From the NCBI GenBank assembly GCA_964610465.1, contig CAZSWA010000006.1:4332-68331 (forward strand): a DNA stretch of 64,000 bases, read 5' to 3'. The notes under the pieces were generated by a model that was not told the DNA's origin, searched no databases, and was given only the letters and a program-made list of their open reading frames with translations. Made by a program: the position numbers and the translations under genes. Numbering within the stretch: position 1 is the stretch's first letter; each line of letters begins with the position of its first letter. Positions 19,885-62,816 of this stretch are shown one piece after another. The DNA comes from an uncultured Gammaproteobacteria bacterium (GTDB lineage Bacteria; Patescibacteriota; Microgenomatia; Levybacterales; UBA12049).

Positions 19885-20835
19885 ATGTCTAAGGAATTAC
19901 CTTTTTCATTGAGAACAGGAGAAGTGGCTCCTAATAAAAGCAGAATCGGGTTTGATAGCTTATTAAAACTGGATAGAGTTGCAGATGGAGAAGCAGCTAG
20001 GATTGCTCTAGCAAAGGAAGGAGTTAGTGCGATATTCAAAGAAACCTCCGGTGGAATCCCCTTGAATGAAGATCTTCTACGAATGATAGGTTCTGACTAT
20101 ATTAAGCGTTGGGAACTTATATATTGTTCTATTGCGCCTTCAATGCTGATTATTGGAGGAGAAAAACCAGAAGAAGGAAGGCTTGAACTAGATGATGCAA
20201 CTGCAACTATTTTTCTAAATCGCCATGTTCATGCTGGTACAAACAATAAAGTAGTATTTTACTCTGCTCGTTTTGCAGATATTATTCCTGATACAAAAAC
20301 CATACTGGAATTTTCTTACGGTGATCCTGATATATCGAAAAGCAGAAAAAAAGAAATTCCATTTAGTTTCCGATTAAGTCATATTGGATTTTCTGTTTCT
20401 CCTAAAGAGTTACCAGAAGATCCTTCTCAATTATTAAGTGGTAGTGGCATTTATGTTGGACATGGTATAAAAAATACTTCTAATGGTCAAACCATCTATA
20501 CTCCATGTTACGAGACATTTCCAATGGATAGAGAAATAGATATATTATTTGATAATGAATTAGACTTTTATTCTGGTTCTGTTATCACAGAACGAATGAG
20601 AAAACGAACTGGAGAGGATAAGAGAATGTTACGGACAGAATATAATGAATGGGCAAGAAAACCGGAGCATGTTATCTATTTAGGTGGAGAACGTGAAAAT
20701 TCACATGATCCAGCAGGAGCATCAGGATTCTATTCACATGCTGATGAAGAACAAGTATGGTTTGGGAGAAATATACAAGATTTACGAGAAGGTATCTCCT
20801 GGAGAGTAAGTTTACCACAATTCTTGAAAAGATAG
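19885..20835 (+). CDS. Hypothetical protein (316 aa, soluble)
   Basis: Long ORF with coding-like composition; no recognisable domain. Confidence 0.35.
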   Translation: MSKELPFSLRTGEVAPNKSRIGFDSLLKLDRVADGEAARIALAKEGVSAIFKETSGGIPLNEDLLRMIGSDYIKRWELIYCSIAPSMLIIGGEKPEEGRLELDDATATIFLNRHVHAGTNNKVVFYSARFADIIPDTKTILEFSYGDPDISKSRKKEIPFSFRLSHIGFSVSPKELPEDPSQLLSGSGIYVGHGIKNTSNGQTIYTPCYETFPMDREIDILFDNELDFYSGSVITERMRKRTGEDKRMLRTEYNEWARKPEHVIYLGGERENSHDPAGASGFYSHADEEQVWFGRNIQDLREGISWRVSLPQFLKR

Positions 20836-20954
20836 TCTCCTTGACATTTATCCTATAGCTTGATAGTATTTCTCTGTACTTTAACATGTTGCGGTAGTGC
20901 GTTCTCGTAGTGCATTGTTTAGTTTTAACAACAGATAACACAAAGGAGAAGCAG

Positions 20955-21227
20955 GTGCCAGATTCCAACGACACGGTGAGAGTCAATTTGTTCAACGATG
21001 CGGTGCGCAATTTAAAGGCACATATCGATGAACAACGTCATCAAGGCGTGCAGATGTTTGACATCCCAGTCATCTTTCTCAAGCATGCGAATTTTTTCTT
21101 CGACGAAGACAGCCCTCTGTGCAGAGAGGTACTGCTTGAGTTGAAGCAGCTTTTCCTTAAGGAAGGGTTGACCATGGATGTGGTTCCTAACAAGGACCGT
21201 TCCTTGTTGCAGCTCGTACTGAACTAG
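20955..21227 (+). CDS. Hypothetical small protein (GTG start), possibly a divergent HicB-like paralogue
   Basis: AGGAGA RBS then GTG at 20955; shares short motif AVRNLK with the downstream HicB ORF; preceded by the same leader repeat. Confidence 0.3.
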   Translation: MPDSNDTVRVNLFNDAVRNLKAHIDEQRHQGVQMFDIPVIFLKHANFFFDEDSPLCREVLLELKQLFLKEGLTMDVVPNKDRSLLQLVLN

Positions 21228-21282
21228 TACATGTAGTGCGTTGTTTAGTTGAAAAAAACCGACAGCATGAAGGAGAGAGACA

Positions 21283-21489
21283 GTGCGTAGTTATCTCGCA
21301 GTGCTATGTCTAGAAGGTGATGTCTATGTAGCTGATTGTCCTCAGCTTGGGACTGTGAGTCAAGGACTTACCATCGAGGAAGCAGTTCGTAACCTCAAAG
21401 AGGCAACAGAAGTCTTTCTTGAATGTGCTCCAACTAGAGAGTCTAGAAAGGTGGTAATAACGACATTCGAAGTTGATACCGCAACATAG
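21283..21489 (+). CDS. hicB: HicB-family (UPF0150) antitoxin-like protein
   Basis: 68 aa; YLAVLCLEGDVYVADCPQLGTVSQGLTIEEAVRNLKEATEVFLE matches HicB N-domain consensus; GTG start with AGGAGA RBS. Confidence 0.7.
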   Translation: MRSYLAVLCLEGDVYVADCPQLGTVSQGLTIEEAVRNLKEATEVFLECAPTRESRKVVITTFEVDTAT

Positions 21490-21578
21490 AATTGCAATAT
21501 TTCCGGGATGGGAAGGAGTCACAATGCTGTGACAAAATTCCATTCCATCTTTGGAAAAGAGGGAAACCTCAACAATAA

Positions 21579-21605
21579 TCCCGCAGATAACCCTGCGGGA
21601 TTTTT
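21579..21605 (+). terminator. Rho-independent terminator after the HicB cassette
   Basis: TCCCGCAG-ATAAC-CCTGCGGGA followed by TTTTT. Confidence 0.5.
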
Positions 21606-21626
21606 CATATTTGCCTATCCAATGAA

Positions 21627-21896
21627 TTATTTTGAAAAACTAAGGAACAATGTGCTATAGAGAAGCGCGTCTTCAGCACGTTTTTTGAAATCTTTTTCTT
21701 CTGACAATTTTTCTACTTTTTTTACTAATTTTTTCATTGTCTGGGATAATGATAAGAAATCCAATTGTTTTTCTCTTTTTATTACTTCCTGCAAGAATCT
21801 ATCTGCCATTTGTATTGACCCTGAATGATACCCAATAGCAACACGTTTTAAATCAAGTGCTATCGTTTGTAATAGTGCATTATTGTTCATATACAT
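21627..21896 (-). CDS. Hypothetical protein
   Basis: ORF 21627..21926; start trimmed to MNNNALL to reduce overlap with the upstream gene. Confidence 0.25.
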   Translation of the reverse strand: MYMNNNALLQTIALDLKRVAIGYHSGSIQMADRFLQEVIKREKQLDFLSLSQTMKKLVKKVEKLSEEKDFKKRAEDALLYSTLFLSFSK

Positions 21897-60401: not shown

Positions 60402-61056
60402 ATGGGGTTTGTAAAAGTAACACCAAAAGAGATAAGAGATGAAATTCTTGCGAAAGTAAAAGCGGGAGAAAGAGTCGCGGCTCTTGTAAAGCAGTATGGA
60501 CTATCTGATAGAATAATTTATGGATGGCTGCATAAAACCACAGGAGAAGGAACTGTTTCCATATGATTTATGGGTTTCAGACGTAAGTTTTCTAAAATTT
60601 CAAGGAAGATTCTGGTATTTAGTAACCATTGAAGAGATTGTAAACAGAAGGATTATTGGAGCGCATGTTGGCAAAAAACATGATAGGTATTTAGTATTAA
60701 CCGCTGTAAAAGAAGTCCTCATTCAAACAAAAGAAGCTCCTTCAATTTTTCATTCTGATCAAGGCACAGAATTTATGGCAGAGGAGGTAACTTCCTTTTT
60801 GAAAAACTTAGGAACTCAAATTTCAGCCTCTGACAAAGCAAGTTCCTGGCAAAACGGCTATCAAGAAAGTTTCTTTGGACGCTTTAAAGATGAAATTGGA
60901 GATATAAATCGCTTTGACACTATTGGAGAATTAATTGAAGAAATTTATCTGCATATCCACTATTACAATACTCAAAGAATTTATACCGCATTAGAAATGC
61001 CACCCGCCGTTTACGCAAATGCTCTCAGAGCATTGTCGGAAAAAATGGGTACTTGA
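60402..61056 (+). mobile_element. Degenerate IS3-family insertion-sequence remnant (truncated OrfA HTH plus frameshifted OrfB integrase-core fragment)
   Basis: OrfA' 60402..60566 MGFVKVTPKEIRDEILAKVKAGERVAALVKQYGLSDRIIYGWLHK (HTH), no leucine zipper or frameshift window; no terminal inverted repeats recognised by eye. Confidence 0.7.
60520..61056 (+). pseudogene. IS3-family transposase OrfB (rve integrase core) fragment
   Basis: DLWVSDVSFLKF..., HSDQGTEF, NGYQESFFGRFKDE = DDE catalytic-core region. Confidence 0.65.
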
Positions 61057-61475
61057 CACACGGGCGACGAGGACAGTTATTCCCTTCCATGCGCCAGCCA
61101 GGTACGGGGATGTTTCGGAAAGCGGACATGCTGAGAGAGGCGCCAAAAGGTGACGACGTACGGCTCTATGTTGAGTTGTTGCGCCGTGCGCATCGTCGCG
61201 AGACGGGAGGATCGCTTCCTCATCCAGCCAAGTGTCTATGCGTCGCTGTGCCTGCTCGAGGCTGGCGTTCCACACCTTTGGATATACGAGCAGATGTCCC
61301 ACCCCAATCGCGGAAATCGCCGAAGTGGCCGATGTCCTGAATGGCTACATCGTGAAGAGCCCATGCGCTCAGGCCGACGGCGATGCTGAAGATCTTCTTG
61401 GGCTCAGGGAGCGGGCGGGAATGACAATGGGGGATGACAGGAATCTTGTTCTGGAAGAGATTTTTACTTATTATC
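61057..61475. other. ~420-bp high-GC (roughly 55-60%) segment of foreign composition between the IS remnant and purA
   Basis: Abrupt compositional shift; overlapping ORFs in five frames (61053..61340+, 61150..61389+, 61232..61483+, 61220..61486-, 60991..61302-) as expected for high-GC DNA. Confidence 0.5.
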
Positions 61476-62816
61476 TTACCTAACAATTATCGCATTTCTC
61501 TGCGGCCCTGTAGAAATATATGTAACCTTTAAATTTGTTTGTTTTTCTACCTCTTCAATATATTTTTTTGCAAGAGGAGGTAAATCAGCATATTTTTTTA
61601 TCCCTTTTAGTGATTGCTGCCAGCCTTTGAGTGTTTTATATACGGGTTGTATTTCTGCAAGGAGTAGTTCATTGACTTCATAATATGATACTTTCTTGCC
61701 TTTATAGAGGTAGCCTGTACAAATTTTAATTTCTTTAAAAGTATCAAGTACATCAATTTTGGTAATGGCAATTCCTGTAAATCCACATATTTGTCCGGCA
61801 AATCTCACAAGCTCTGCATCAAACCAGCCGCATCTTCGTGGTCTTCCGGTAGTAGTTCCATACTCTGCTCCAATTTTACGAAGGCTTTCTCCTGTATCAT
61901 CAAATAATTCAGTCGGGAAAGGTCCTGCACCAACCCGTGTCGTATAGGCTTTCACGACACCTATCACATCATCAATGTATTTGGGAGGAATACCGGCTCC
62001 TGCATTGAGTCCGCCTGGTACTACATTTGATGCAGTGACATAGGGATACGTGCCCCAATCATTGTCCAGAAATAATGCATGTGCGCCTTCAATCAGAATA
62101 GATTTATTTTGAGAAAGCGCTTTTTGAATAAAGGGATATGGTTCTTTGATGTAGGGAAGTAGTTTTTTGCGGAAGCCAAAAAATATATCTTCAATTTCTT
62201 TTTGGTTGAATTGTTGCTCAGCAAAGGTGGCAATAATTTTATTTTTGACTGATGAATGTTTGCGAAAAGGAAATAAATTTTCTTTGTTACTTAGTGCACT
62301 TATAATCTTATTTTTTATCGCGAGTTGCGTTGAAAGCTTTTCTGAGAAGTGCTTTTTATCCAGAAGATCAAAAAGTCGTATGCCGTTATAACTTACCTTA
62401 TCAGCATAGGTTGGTCCAATTCCGCGGCCGGTTGTTCCTGTTTTGGCTTTGCCTTTGGCTTCCTCATAGAGTTTGTCCAGTATTTTGTGGTAGGGCATAA
62501 TGATATGACAGCGTGGAGAAATAAAAAGTCTGTCTTTAAGGTCAATTCCAGCTTTTGTAAGTATCTCTATCTCTGAGATAAGTACTTCAAGATCCAAAAT
62601 AACGCCATTGCAAATATATGCTTTTATTTTGGGAGCAAATATACCTGATGGAATAAGATGCATGGGGAATTTGCCATACTCATTGACAACTGTATGTCCT
62701 GCGTTGTTGCCTCCATGAAATCTGAGAGTCACATCTGAAGATGTTGAGATGAAATCAATTATTTTCCCTTTGCCTTCGTCTCCCCATTGAGAGCCAATAA
62801 CAAGTGTGACTGCCAT
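61476..62816 (-). CDS. purA: Adenylosuccinate synthetase
   Basis: N-terminal GSQWGDEGKGKI P-loop; 446 aa. Confidence 0.9.
   Translation of the reverse strand: MAVTLVIGSQWGDEGKGKIIDFISTSSDVTLRFHGGNNAGHTVVNEYGKFPMHLIPSGIFAPKIKAYICNGVILDLEVLISEIEILTKAGIDLKDRLFISPRCHIIMPYHKILDKLYEEAKGKAKTGTTGRGIGPTYADKVSYNGIRLFDLLDKKHFSEKLSTQLAIKNKIISALSNKENLFPFRKHSSVKNKIIATFAEQQFNQKEIEDIFFGFRKKLLPYIKEPYPFIQKALSQNKSILIEGAHALFLDNDWGTYPYVTASNVVPGGLNAGAGIPPKYIDDVIGVVKAYTTRVGAGPFPTELFDDTGESLRKIGAEYGTTTGRPRRCGWFDAELVRFAGQICGFTGIAITKIDVLDTFKEIKICTGYLYKGKKVSYYEVNELLLAEIQPVYKTLKGWQQSLKGIKKYADLPPLAKKYIEEVEKQTNLKVTYISTGPQRNAIIVR

What the first reader, a model, noticed from the sequence alone, without database searches (positions are those of the whole stretch)
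20836..21610. Higher-GC mini-island carrying an orphan HicB-like antitoxin and an unknown upstream partner, each with a copy of an operator-like leader and no HicA
The region is visibly more GC-rich than its surroundings. It contains two GTG-initiated small ORFs with AGGAGA ribosome-binding sites. The second (21283..21489) is a clear HicB/UPF0150 N-domain protein. The first (20955..21227, 91 aa) is unrecognised, but shares the short motif AVRNLK with the HicB ORF, so it may be a diverged HicB-like paralogue. Each ORF is preceded by the same motif TAGTGCGTTGTTTAGTT (20884..20924, where it is partially tandem-duplicated, and 21229..21250), suggesting a duplicated operator/promoter. A terminator closes the cassette at 21579..21605. 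No HicA-like (YcfA) toxin ORF is found in any frame, so the cognate toxin is either the unknown protein, lost, or novel.
Basis: partly seen in the sequence, partly recalled or inferred. Interest (0 to 1): 0.55.

Follow-up and report, generated by a model that had tools for sequence, protein, structure and literature searches.

The report
Orphan HicB antitoxin plus unknown gene
A small two-gene operon in a candidate-phyla-radiation bacterium encodes a short HicB antitoxin that has no HicA toxin gene, preceded by a species-unique 90-residue gene carrying a copy of the hicB leader. It is a fairly ordinary decayed toxin-antitoxin locus with one unexplained passenger.

Summary
Region 20836-21610 is a compositional outlier (GC 0.455, window mean 0.358). 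It has one sigma-70-like promoter, two GTG-started ORFs behind AAGGAGA sites, a repeated leader box and an intrinsic terminator.

ORF2 (68 aa) is a short HicB without a DNA-binding domain (Gerdes "Class 2"). This rests on a profile match to solved structures, a predicted beta-beta-beta-alpha fold, and 62 of 74 close relatives having hicA immediately downstream. No HicA or HicA remnant exists anywhere in the 64-kb window. Twelve of 74 relatives are also orphans, and others show hicA decay in progress.

ORF1 (90 aa) has no homologue among 1.84 billion representative proteins. It still looks coding: codon-position GC differs strongly (p = 3.5e-8), it has a good ribosome-binding site, and it gives a moderately confident alpha/beta model. 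Its GC3 of 0.615 (host 0.26 +/- 0.04) suggests foreign DNA. It is acidic, unlike HicA.

Its resemblance to HicB is six to nine residues (p about 0.02) and is not established homology. The leader duplication is real, but only the first copy has a promoter, and this HicB has no DNA-binding domain. The "duplicated operator" reading is therefore unsupported.

Verdict: orphan antitoxin plus an ORFan. Interest is low to moderate.

The parts
20841..20869 (+). Sigma-70-like promoter: TTGACA, 17-nt spacer, TG-extended TAGTAT. The inferred transcription start is near 20877.
   Evidence: Best site in the consensus scan, 10 of 12 matches with TG. It lies 5 nt after the stop of the upstream 316-aa gene.
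20877..20954 (+). Leader 1 (5' UTR of ORF1). It contains the palindrome AACATGTT, a partial box GTAGTGCGTT (20894-20903), the full box GTAGTGCATTGTTTAGTT (20907-20924) and the ribosome-binding site AAGGAGA (20943-20949).
   Evidence: It has no fold more stable than shuffled sequence (z = -0.39).
20955..21227 (+). ORF1: GTG start, 90 aa, acidic (pI 5.2), found nowhere else. Predicted order of elements is alpha-beta-alpha-beta-beta.
   Evidence: No homologue was found. It matched no family or solved structure. GC at codon positions 1/2/3 is 0.57/0.22/0.615, chi-square p = 3.5e-8. The AlphaFold2 model has pLDDT 67.9. It is absent from the 15-billion-protein collection in all three start variants tested.
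21228..21282 (+). Leader 2 (spacer between the two genes). It contains the palindrome TACATGTA overlapping the ORF1 stop, the box GTAGTGCGTTGTTTAGTT (21233-21250) and the ribosome-binding site AAGGAGA (21270-21276).
   Evidence: It is homologous to leader 1 over about 52 nt, including the ribosome-binding site and GTGC. No promoter-like site precedes it. It has no stable fold.
21283..21489 (+). hicB: a 68-aa HicB antitoxin consisting only of the partial RNase H (HicA-binding) domain, with no DNA-binding domain.
   Evidence: Relatives are 52-67% identical and mostly followed by hicA. The profile matches PDB 2YZT (E = 6e-6) and HicB 6G1C/6G1N. AlphaFold2 predicts beta-beta-beta-alpha. Top Foldseek matches are 2YZT and HicB. 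All 20 invariant columns of the five-sequence alignment, of which this protein is one row, are by definition kept here.
21500..21570 (+). Structured 3' UTR: a 58-nt imperfect hairpin (21500-21557) and a small hairpin (21559-21570). They occupy the position where relatives carry hicA.
   Evidence: Folding 21488-21612 gives z = -6.5, with 0 of 200 shuffles as stable. The element is unique in the window. It has no significant Rfam match: nothing at gathering score, and only far-sub-threshold matches that overlap the terminator, not this hairpin.
21577..21610 (+). Intrinsic terminator: a 10-bp stem with 6 G-C pairs and a 6-nt loop, followed by a T run.

Best explanation
The region is one small operon: promoter, 78-nt leader, ORF1, 55-nt spacer, hicB, structured 3' UTR, terminator.

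hicB encodes a short HicB antitoxin of the kind that lacks a DNA-binding domain and normally sits just upstream of, and overlapping, its hicA toxin gene (Gerdes Class 2, hicBA order). Here hicA is absent. A unique hairpin and a terminator lie where hicA would be, so this is an orphan antitoxin. The protein keeps the family's conserved residues, so it is probably still functional. By inference, it neutralises HicA toxins made elsewhere in the genome or brought in by mobile elements (an 'anti-addiction' or immunity role).

ORF1 is probably a real gene confined to this lineage and of foreign origin, given its G+C-rich third codon positions. It shares with hicB a roughly 52-nt copy of the 5' leader, including the ribosome-binding site and GTG start. 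Both genes are therefore inferred to be transcribed from one promoter and translated from near-identical initiation regions.

The conserved 18-nt box is most simply a retained part of that duplicated initiation region. It could also be a cis-regulatory site for an unknown factor.

Shown: the anatomy, the HicB identity, the absence of HicA, the coding signature and uniqueness of ORF1, and the leader duplication.

Inferred: co-transcription, trans-acting antitoxin function, and foreign origin of ORF1. The function of ORF1 is unknown.
For: HicB identity:
- Homologues are 55-67% identical.
- In L001-L006 and L011 the homologue is followed by an overlapping PF07927 HicA gene.
- Among 74 metagenomic relatives with enough downstream sequence, 57 have a separate hicA immediately downstream and 5 more carry hicA in the same stop-free frame as hicB, giving 62 of 74.
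- The profile matches PDB 2YZT and HicB structures.
- AlphaFold2 predicts beta-beta-beta-alpha, and the top fold matches are 2YZT, 6G1C and 6G1N.

No DNA-binding domain: the protein is 68 aa and has only the N-terminal fold. Class 2 is described in PMC10865869.

hicA absence: the family HicA profile finds nothing in the window, and the six-frame Pfam scan finds only HicB.

Orphan state and decay are common in this subfamily:
- 12 of 74 relatives lack hicA.
- Several of these sit in a conserved context between a DNA polymerase III delta'-like gene and an enoyl-CoA hydratase-like gene. These neighbour names are read from the ORF translations and were not tested against a family library.
- hicA is frameshifted in L007.
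- hicA N-terminal stubs are fused to other ORFs in L087 and L122.

Operon: there is a single promoter-like site, no promoter before leader 2, and one strong terminator.

ORF1 is coding:
- GC differs strongly by codon position (p = 3.5e-8).
- The stop-free run is 109 codons (p about 0.026).
- AAGGAGA lies 5 nt before the GTG.
- The model has pLDDT 67.9 with defined alpha/beta elements.

ORF1 is foreign and unique:
- GC3 is 0.615, against 0.259 +/- 0.042 (maximum 0.346) for 50 long ORFs.
- No homologue was found.

Leader duplication.
Against: - ORF1 has no homologue anywhere and was not called as a gene in the source records, although both of its neighbours were. There is no conservation evidence that it is translated.
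- The single-sequence model is only moderately confident and matches no fold consistently.
- A recent foreign origin for ORF1 does not explain how it acquired a copy of the resident hicB leader.
- The G+C-rich third positions could instead reflect selection for RNA structure (ORF1 RNA z = -3.3).
- Only 64 kb of the genome is visible, so 'orphan' means no hicA in cis.
- No empty-site comparison was possible. The nearest genomes share only 57% identity in the neighbouring M16 peptidase, and gene order downstream is not conserved.
Confidence: 0.5

Rival explanations
1. Toxin swap. ORF1 is a new toxin or effector unrelated to HicA that has replaced HicA as the partner of this HicB. The locus would then be a working two-gene toxin-antitoxin module with the toxin gene first, and the shared leader box would balance expression of the two genes.
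For: - The two genes form a tight operon with one promoter and one terminator.
- Their initiation regions are near-identical.
- hicB is intact and conserved although hicA is absent.
- ORF1 appears to be coding.
- Toxin-first order is the classical hicAB arrangement (PMC10865869).
Against: - ORF1 is acidic (pI 5.18, charge -4), like antitoxins. The HicA consensus has pI 9.85.
- It matches no toxin family, defence family or toxin fold.
- None of 80 hicB relatives has an ORF1-like neighbour.
- Orphan hicB genes are kept in 12 of 74 relatives without any such partner, so no partner is needed to explain why hicB is retained.
Confidence: 0.15
2. Tandem-duplicated antitoxin. Leader plus hicB duplicated in tandem. 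The upstream copy then lost its first 17 codons (strands beta1 and beta2) and diverged into ORF1. ORF1 would be a HicB-derived paralogue that keeps the HicA-contacting helix.
For: - The leader duplication includes the ribosome-binding site and start codon.
- AVRNLK is identical in both proteins although every one of the six codons differs at the third position.
- The motif lies in HicB helix alpha1, which packs on HicA (PMC10865869).
- BLASTP gives E = 0.019, and the profile score has p about 0.017.
- Both proteins are acidic.
- A tandem hicB duplication exists in relative L087.
Against: - Similarity is limited to 6-9 residues, and hhalign probability is 7.8%.
- Against the HicB profile ORF1 scores only 1.5 bits.
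- The predicted ORF1 topology lacks the three-strand sheet, and no HicB structure appears among its fold matches.
- GC3 is 0.615 in ORF1 and 0.29 in hicB, which is hard to reconcile with duplication in place.
Confidence: 0.15
3. ORF1 is not translated. The 20877-21282 stretch would be a long structured 5' leader or remnant DNA in front of hicB, and the open frame would be incidental.
For: - No homologue exists in about 15 billion predicted proteins, and ORF1 itself was not called as a gene.
- The RNA is more structured than shuffled sequence (z = -3.3 for ORF1; z = -7 for the whole transcript, based on 20 shuffles).
- G+C-rich non-coding stretches in A+T-rich genomes are often structured RNAs (general knowledge).
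Against: - GC differs strongly by codon position in the ORF1 frame (chi-square p = 3.5e-8).
- A canonical ribosome-binding site sits at the correct distance from the start.
- The reverse-strand frame is open but has no start codon near its beginning.
- There is no significant Rfam match.
- In 200-nt windows, ORF1 z-scores (about -2) are not far outside those of neighbouring genes.
- No other sequences exist with which to test covariation.
Confidence: 0.15

Closest known systems
Class 2 hicBA modules (Gerdes 2024, mBio, PMC10865869): compact operons with a 60-90 aa HicB lacking a DNA-binding domain, followed by hicA
   Same: [quoted passage not shown] It is 52-67% identical to hicB genes that are followed by an overlapping hicA in 62 of 74 relatives.
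   Different: There is no hicA; a hairpin and terminator sit in its place. An extra unrelated gene lies upstream in the same operon, behind a copy of the hicB leader.
Solitary (orphan) antitoxin genes, for example the solitary hicB genes noted in a Methanosarcina barkeri defence island (PMC10865869)
   Same: An intact antitoxin gene is kept without an adjacent toxin. Twelve of 74 relatives of this hicB are also orphans, and some of those sit in a conserved chromosomal context.
   Different: This one is co-transcribed with a gene found nowhere else. No defence island, transposase or other toxin-antitoxin gene is adjacent.
TTHA1756 of Thermus thermophilus (PDB 2YZT), a stand-alone 67-aa UPF0150/HicB-like protein
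   Same: It is the best sequence-profile match (E = 6.4e-6) and the best fold match (probability 1.00, TM 0.63). It has the same length and single-domain architecture.
   Different: It shares about 29% identity. Its function is also uncharacterised, so it adds nothing on mechanism.
Classical hicAB of E. coli K-12 and Burkholderia pseudomallei (Classes 3 and 4)
   Same: The HicB N-terminal domain has the same fold, and the conserved helix alpha1 motif (EEAxxNLKEA) is the part that packs on HicA. The gene order of an unknown gene first and hicB second resembles hicA-hicB.
   Different: Classical HicB carries a C-terminal helix-turn-helix or ribbon-helix-helix domain that binds palindromic operators and represses its own operon. 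The protein here has no such domain. The upstream gene is not a HicA.

Membership tests
HicB antitoxin (partial RNase H fold; Pfam HicB_lk_antitox / UPF0150) | N-terminal beta-beta-beta-alpha(-beta) partial RNase H fold | tested here: met
   The AlphaFold2 model has strands 7-11, 14-19 and 24-28 and helix 31-48, with pLDDT above 90 over residues 11-40. The C-terminal beta4 strand is not resolved. Top Foldseek matches are 2YZT, HicB 6G1C/6G1N and 3K6Q.
HicB antitoxin (partial RNase H fold; Pfam HicB_lk_antitox / UPF0150) | Sequence match to the curated family model at its gathering score | tested here: not met
   PF15919 scores 17.0 bits against a cut-off of 27. PF21748 scores 16.8 bits against 27.3. 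The match is compensated by a family profile that hits 2YZT at E = 6.4e-6 and HicB chains at E = 0.005-0.02, and by PHROG 497 'HicB-like' at E = 4e-4.
HicB antitoxin (partial RNase H fold; Pfam HicB_lk_antitox / UPF0150) | Close homologues encoded next to a HicA toxin gene | tested here: met
   62 of 74 relatives at 52-63% identity have hicA immediately downstream or fused. L001-L006 and L011 do as well.
hicBA type II toxin-antitoxin module | A HicA (PF07927) toxin gene adjacent to hicB | tested here: not met
   A 75-sequence HicA profile gives no hit in any frame of the 64-kb window. The six-frame Pfam scan of 20700-21750 shows only HicB. DNA alignment of the segment downstream of hicB to hicA is no better than shuffled sequence.
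hicBA type II toxin-antitoxin module | Antitoxin neutralises toxin by direct binding | not testable with these tools
   This needs co-expression or binding assays, or multimer structure prediction.
Classical HicB autoregulator (Classes 3 and 4) | C-terminal helix-turn-helix or ribbon-helix-helix DNA-binding domain acting on palindromic operators | tested here: not met
   The protein ends at residue 68, about 20 residues after helix alpha1, leaving no room for a DNA-binding domain. The repeated box is not a palindrome; only short ACATGT-centred 8-nt palindromes are nearby.
ORF1 as a HicB paralogue | Significant sequence or profile similarity to HicB | tested here: inconclusive
   BLASTP gives E = 0.019 over 9 residues. 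hhalign gives probability 7.8%. The 81-sequence profile gives 1.5 bits, with 34 of 2000 shuffles as good.
ORF1 as a HicB paralogue | Partial RNase H fold | tested here: not met
ORF1 as HicA or any known toxin or defence protein | Match to Pfam, NCBIfam, PADLOC, PHROGs, PDB or the HicA profile | tested here: not met
   There were no hits. ORF1 is acidic (pI 5.18), whereas the HicA consensus has pI 9.85.
Horizontally acquired genomic island | Atypical composition relative to the host | tested here: met
   GC is +3.2 sd and trinucleotide deviation is z = +3.4. The third-position signal is confined to ORF1 (GC3 0.615). hicB's GC3 of 0.29 is host-like.
Horizontally acquired genomic island | Mobility hallmarks (integrase, flanking repeats, tRNA target) or an empty site in relatives | tested here: inconclusive
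   No flanking direct repeats were found. No integrase or tRNA gene is nearby; the only tRNA is at 29.7 kb. The closest genomes (57% identical M16 peptidase) conserve gene order upstream but not downstream, so no empty site could be examined.

The most novel reading that the evidence does not exclude
ORF1 is a previously unseen toxin or effector unrelated to HicA that has taken HicA's place as partner of a HicB lacking a DNA-binding domain. The 18-nt box present in both leaders would then be a post-transcriptional control site that keeps the two proteins in balance. That would offer a testable answer to how HicB modules without DNA-binding domains are regulated.
Probability: 0.1. Interest if true: 0.6.

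Novelty: new member of a known kind. Interest (0 to 1): 0.3.

Why it matters
Taken at face value, this is one more example of toxin loss that leaves a conserved orphan antitoxin. It fits the view that antitoxins can persist alone, for instance as protection against incoming toxin-antitoxin elements.

Two points have modest wider interest. First, Gerdes (2024) flagged as an open question how HicB modules without a DNA-binding domain are regulated. A conserved leader box duplicated in front of both genes is a concrete, small element to test. Second, ORF1 shows a foreign, codon-atypical gene being placed in an existing operon behind a copy of the resident translation-initiation region. Automated gene callers skipped it.

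If ORF1 proved to be a HicB-neutralised toxin, it would define a new toxin family. Nothing found here favours that.

Tried and rejected
1. hicA remnant downstream of hicB. A three-way MAFFT alignment and the string TTTCCGGGA looked suggestive. Pairwise local alignment was no better than shuffled sequence, with 953 and 220 of 1000 shuffles as good. A family HicA profile scored the segment at about -2 bits. Rejected.

2. Homologues of ORF1. None were found by:
- the word-indexed search of 5.8 billion proteins;
- exhaustive phmmer against 1.84 billion representatives;
- pattern and tblastn scans of metagenome and viral contigs, which can seed only on near-identical relatives;
- tblastn against 80 hicB loci;
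- Pfam, NCBIfam, PADLOC, PHROGs and PDB sequence searches.

4. Leader as a structured RNA. Both leaders fold no better than shuffled sequence, and there is no Rfam match.

5. Leader box elsewhere. It is absent from all hicB relatives. The match at 43.9 kb is a chance hit in the gap between a gene read from its translation as a histidine kinase and one read as a pilin-like gene (neither was checked against a family library).

6. Third, inverted copy of the box at 21634-21660, which would make terminal inverted repeats. Its score is reached by 0.34% of window segments, so it is not significant.

7. Cassette DNA in plasmid and phage collections. No match.

8. Source contig and empty-site comparison. 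Exact-protein look-ups for hicB and both flanking genes found no record. The nearest genomes are too distant.

9. The 316-aa upstream neighbour as a clue. It is itself found nowhere else.
Full report
**1. What is in the sequence**

The 20836-21610 region reaches GC 0.455 in 650-nt windows. The window mean is 0.358 with sd 0.030, and only 60.6-61.3 kb is richer. Its trinucleotide composition ranks 8th of 633 windows for deviation (z = +3.4).

The layout is as follows.
- The upstream 316-aa gene stops at 20835.
- Five bases later comes the best sigma-70-like site in the area: TTGACA, 17 nt, TG-extended TAGTAT, at 20841-20869.
- A leader of about 78 nt follows.
- ORF1 runs 20955-21227 (GTG start, 90 aa), with AAGGAGA ending 5 nt before the start.
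- A 55-nt spacer follows.
- ORF2 runs 21283-21489 (GTG start, 68 aa), with AAGGAGA ending 6 nt before the start.
- An 87-nt 3' region follows.
- A strong intrinsic terminator lies at 21577-21602, followed by a T run.

No promoter-like site precedes ORF2, and no convincing terminator separates the two ORFs. The simplest reading is one two-gene operon. This is an inference.

**2. The repeated leader**

The box GTAGTGCATTGTTTAGTT (20907-20924) recurs as GTAGTGCGTTGTTTAGTT (21233-21250), matching in 17 of 18 bases. A partial third copy, GTAGTGCGTT, lies at 20894-20903. Similarity continues for about 52 nt through the ribosome-binding site into GTGC (local alignment z = 9.2; 1 of 2000 dinucleotide shuffles as good). 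AGTGC occurs 5 times within about 420 nt here, against 38 times in the whole 64 kb.

The A/T-rich core also finds an equally good but meaningless match at 43.9 kb, in the gap between two genes. I read these from their translations as a histidine kinase and a pilin-like gene; neither was checked against a family library. The case for a real duplication therefore rests on the near-perfect box and its matching position before both start codons.

Neither leader folds better than shuffled sequence. The box is absent from 80 loci carrying hicB relatives. An apparent inverted copy just past the terminator (21634-21660) is not significant.

**3. ORF2 is a HicB without a DNA-binding domain**

Direct Pfam evidence is below threshold (17 bits, cut-off 27). 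The assignment is nevertheless firm, for these reasons.
- Five homologues at 55-67% identity were found.
- One of them is followed by an overlapping PF07927 HicA gene in six independent contigs. Another relative, L011, shows the same.
- A five-sequence profile hits PDB 2YZT (TTHA1756, 67 aa) at E = 6.4e-6 and HicB chains 6G1C, 6G1N and 9SVK at E = 0.005-0.02.
- AlphaFold2 predicts beta(7-11)-beta(14-19)-beta(24-28)-alpha(31-48). The best fold matches are 2YZT, HicB and another antitoxin, 3K6Q.

The protein ends about 20 residues after helix alpha1, so it has no DNA-binding domain. This matches Gerdes' Class 2: hicBA gene order, HicB of 60-90 aa, no DNA-binding domain. That class is untested experimentally, and how it is regulated is an acknowledged open question (PMC10865869).

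**4. HicA is absent, and that is not rare in this subfamily**

A metagenome scan returned 80 loci with relatives at 52-63% identity, out of at least 518. Of the 74 with at least 200 nt downstream, 57 have a separate hicA immediately downstream. Five more carry hicA in the same stop-free frame as hicB. Twelve (16%) have none.

Several of the orphans share a conserved context between a DNA polymerase III delta'-like gene and an enoyl-CoA hydratase-like gene, which indicates that the orphan hicB is retained. These neighbour names are my reading of the ORF translations and were not tested against a family library. Other loci show decay in progress:
- a frameshifted hicA in L007;
- a hicA N-terminal stub fused to a second hicB copy in L087;
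- a hicA stub fused to an ORF I read as ddl-like in L122.

A HicA profile built from 75 of these neighbouring genes finds nothing in any frame of the 64-kb window. That includes the segment after hicB. A six-frame Pfam scan of 20700-21750 finds only HicB.

I first suspected a hicA stub after the hicB stop codon. It failed the shuffle tests and the profile test, so I reject it.

What lies there instead is a unique, strongly structured element: a 58-nt hairpin, a small hairpin and the terminator (z = -6.5). It has no significant Rfam match. Nothing reaches gathering score, and the only low-scoring matches overlap the terminator rather than the hairpin.

**5. ORF1**

No homologue was found anywhere.
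- The word-indexed search of 5.8 billion proteins did not even find ORF1 itself.
- An exhaustive phmmer search of 1.84 billion representatives gave zero hits at E up to 0.001.
- Metagenome and viral scans gave nothing. These can seed only on near-identical relatives.
- Family libraries and PDB sequences gave nothing.

None of three possible start variants is in the 15-billion-protein collection, although both neighbouring genes from the same 71.8-kb NCBI contig are there. The gene callers therefore skipped ORF1.

It nevertheless looks coding.
- GC at codon positions 1/2/3 is 0.57/0.22/0.615 (chi-square p = 3.5e-8).
- The stop-free run of 109 codons is unusual for this composition (p about 0.026).
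- The ribosome-binding site geometry is canonical.
- A single-sequence AlphaFold2 model gives pLDDT 67.9, with helix 4-29, strand 34-38, helix 54-69 and strands 74-78 and 84-89.

Fold searches give only weak, mutually inconsistent matches.

ORF1's GC3 of 0.615 lies far outside the host range. Fifty long ORFs average 0.259 +/- 0.042, with a maximum of 0.346. This probably explains why gene callers rejected it, and it points to recent foreign origin. hicB's GC3 of 0.29 is host-like; its higher GC comes from positions 1 and 2. The 'island' is therefore made of two compositionally different parts.

ORF1 RNA is somewhat more structured than expected (z = -3.3; about -2 in 200-nt windows). A role for RNA structure in raising GC3 cannot be excluded.

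**6. Is ORF1 a HicB paralogue or a toxin?**

The shared AVRNLK lies in HicB helix alpha1, the helix that packs on HicA (PMC10865869). All six codons differ at the third position between the two genes. With gaps of 17 and 1 codons, ORF1 residues 7-21 can be aligned by eye to HicB residues 24-39.

The statistics are only borderline:
- BLASTP E = 0.019;
- hhalign probability 7.8%;
- 1.5 bits against an 81-sequence HicB profile, with 34 of 2000 shuffles as good.

The predicted topology lacks HicB's three-strand sheet. Homology is therefore possible but not shown.

As a toxin candidate, ORF1 is unpromising. It has pI 5.18 and net charge -4, like antitoxins. The HicA consensus has pI 9.85. It matches no toxin or defence family.

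**7. Most likely mechanism**

The steps that are shown are the anatomy, the HicB identity, the absence of HicA, the coding signature and uniqueness of ORF1, and the leader duplication.

The inferred steps are these. One promoter drives a two-gene transcript that ends at the terminator. Both genes use near-identical initiation regions. HicB, lacking a cis-encoded toxin and a DNA-binding domain, acts in trans against HicA toxins encoded elsewhere or arriving on mobile elements. ORF1 is a recently acquired passenger gene of unknown function that shares a copy of the hicB leader.

The 18-nt box is most simply a retained part of that duplicated initiation region. Its near-perfect conservation, compared with its more diverged flanks, leaves room for a cis-regulatory role. 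HicB itself is unlikely to be the binder.

**8. Context**

The window comes from a candidate-phyla-radiation bacterium. The neighbouring M16 peptidase is 57% identical to one in a Candidatus Levyibacteriota genome assembled from a metagenome. By my reading of the ORF translations, the upstream gene order is gltX, a membrane protein gene, a diacylglycerol kinase gene and the M16 peptidase gene, and it is conserved there. Everything downstream of M16 differs. The cassette therefore lies in a variable region, and no empty-site comparison was possible. The 316-aa upstream gene is also found nowhere else. The cassette has no match in the plasmid or phage collections.

**9. Verdict**

This is an orphan Class 2 HicB antitoxin, a known kind of object, with a unique co-transcribed gene and a duplicated leader as unexplained extras. 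I rate the novelty as a new member of a known kind and the interest at about 0.3. The most novel reading not excluded is that ORF1 is a new HicB-neutralised toxin and the leader box is a post-transcriptional control site. I give that about a 10% chance.

Noticed in passing
window 60520-61476: This is the most compositionally deviant part of the window, with GC up to 0.50. ORF 60520-61056 is an N-terminally truncated IS3-type transposase (Pfam rve, E = 2.4e-14). The adjacent 61056-61476 has no credible ORF, no Pfam hit and no Rfam match even at E up to 1.
   Followed up: partly
window 19885-20835 (+): The 316-aa gene immediately upstream of the cassette is found nowhere else. Only its own sequence is present among 5.8 billion proteins. 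It has no Pfam, NCBIfam or PADLOC hit and only a weak PHROG match (E = 0.017). Its GC3 is host-like (0.19). No terminator separates it from the cassette promoter.
   Followed up: partly
window 21500-21557 (+): A unique 58-nt imperfect hairpin lies between the hicB stop codon and the terminator. Folding 21488-21612 gives z = -6.5. It occupies the position where relatives carry hicA. Its function is unknown; it might stabilise the mRNA or be a 3'UTR-derived small RNA.
   Followed up: partly
L103, L108, L109, L114, L131 (hicB match coordinates): In five metagenomic relatives, hicB and hicA lie in one stop-free reading frame. This suggests fused HicB-HicA proteins, comparable to Gerdes' fused classes.
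   Followed up: no
L087 3185-3430; L122 2375-3373; L007 1264-1495: These loci show stages of hicA decay. In L087 a HicA N-terminus (MPPKLPRVSGG) is fused to a second, tandem hicB copy. In L122 a HicA N-terminus is fused to an ORF I read as D-Ala-D-Ala ligase-like (not checked against a family library). In L007 hicA is frameshifted.
   Followed up: partly
L088, L099, L119, L130, L137, L145: Orphan hicB genes sit in a conserved chromosomal context, between genes I read from their translations as DNA polymerase III delta'-like and enoyl-CoA hydratase-like (not checked against a family library). This holds across several related metagenomic genomes and implies long-term retention of the antitoxin without a cis toxin.
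   Followed up: no
window 20886-20896 and 21477-21487: A perfect 11-nt inverted repeat (ATGTTGCGGTA / TACCGCAACAT) could pair the 5' leader with the 3' end of hicB within the transcript. About 0.1 such repeats are expected by chance in 1 kb, so it may be coincidental.
   Followed up: no
window 21282-21310: The first codons of hicB (AGTGCGTAGTT, then CAGTGCTATGT) resemble the leader box AGTGCGTTGTT. The box may therefore have arisen by serial duplication of the hicB 5' end.
   Followed up: no
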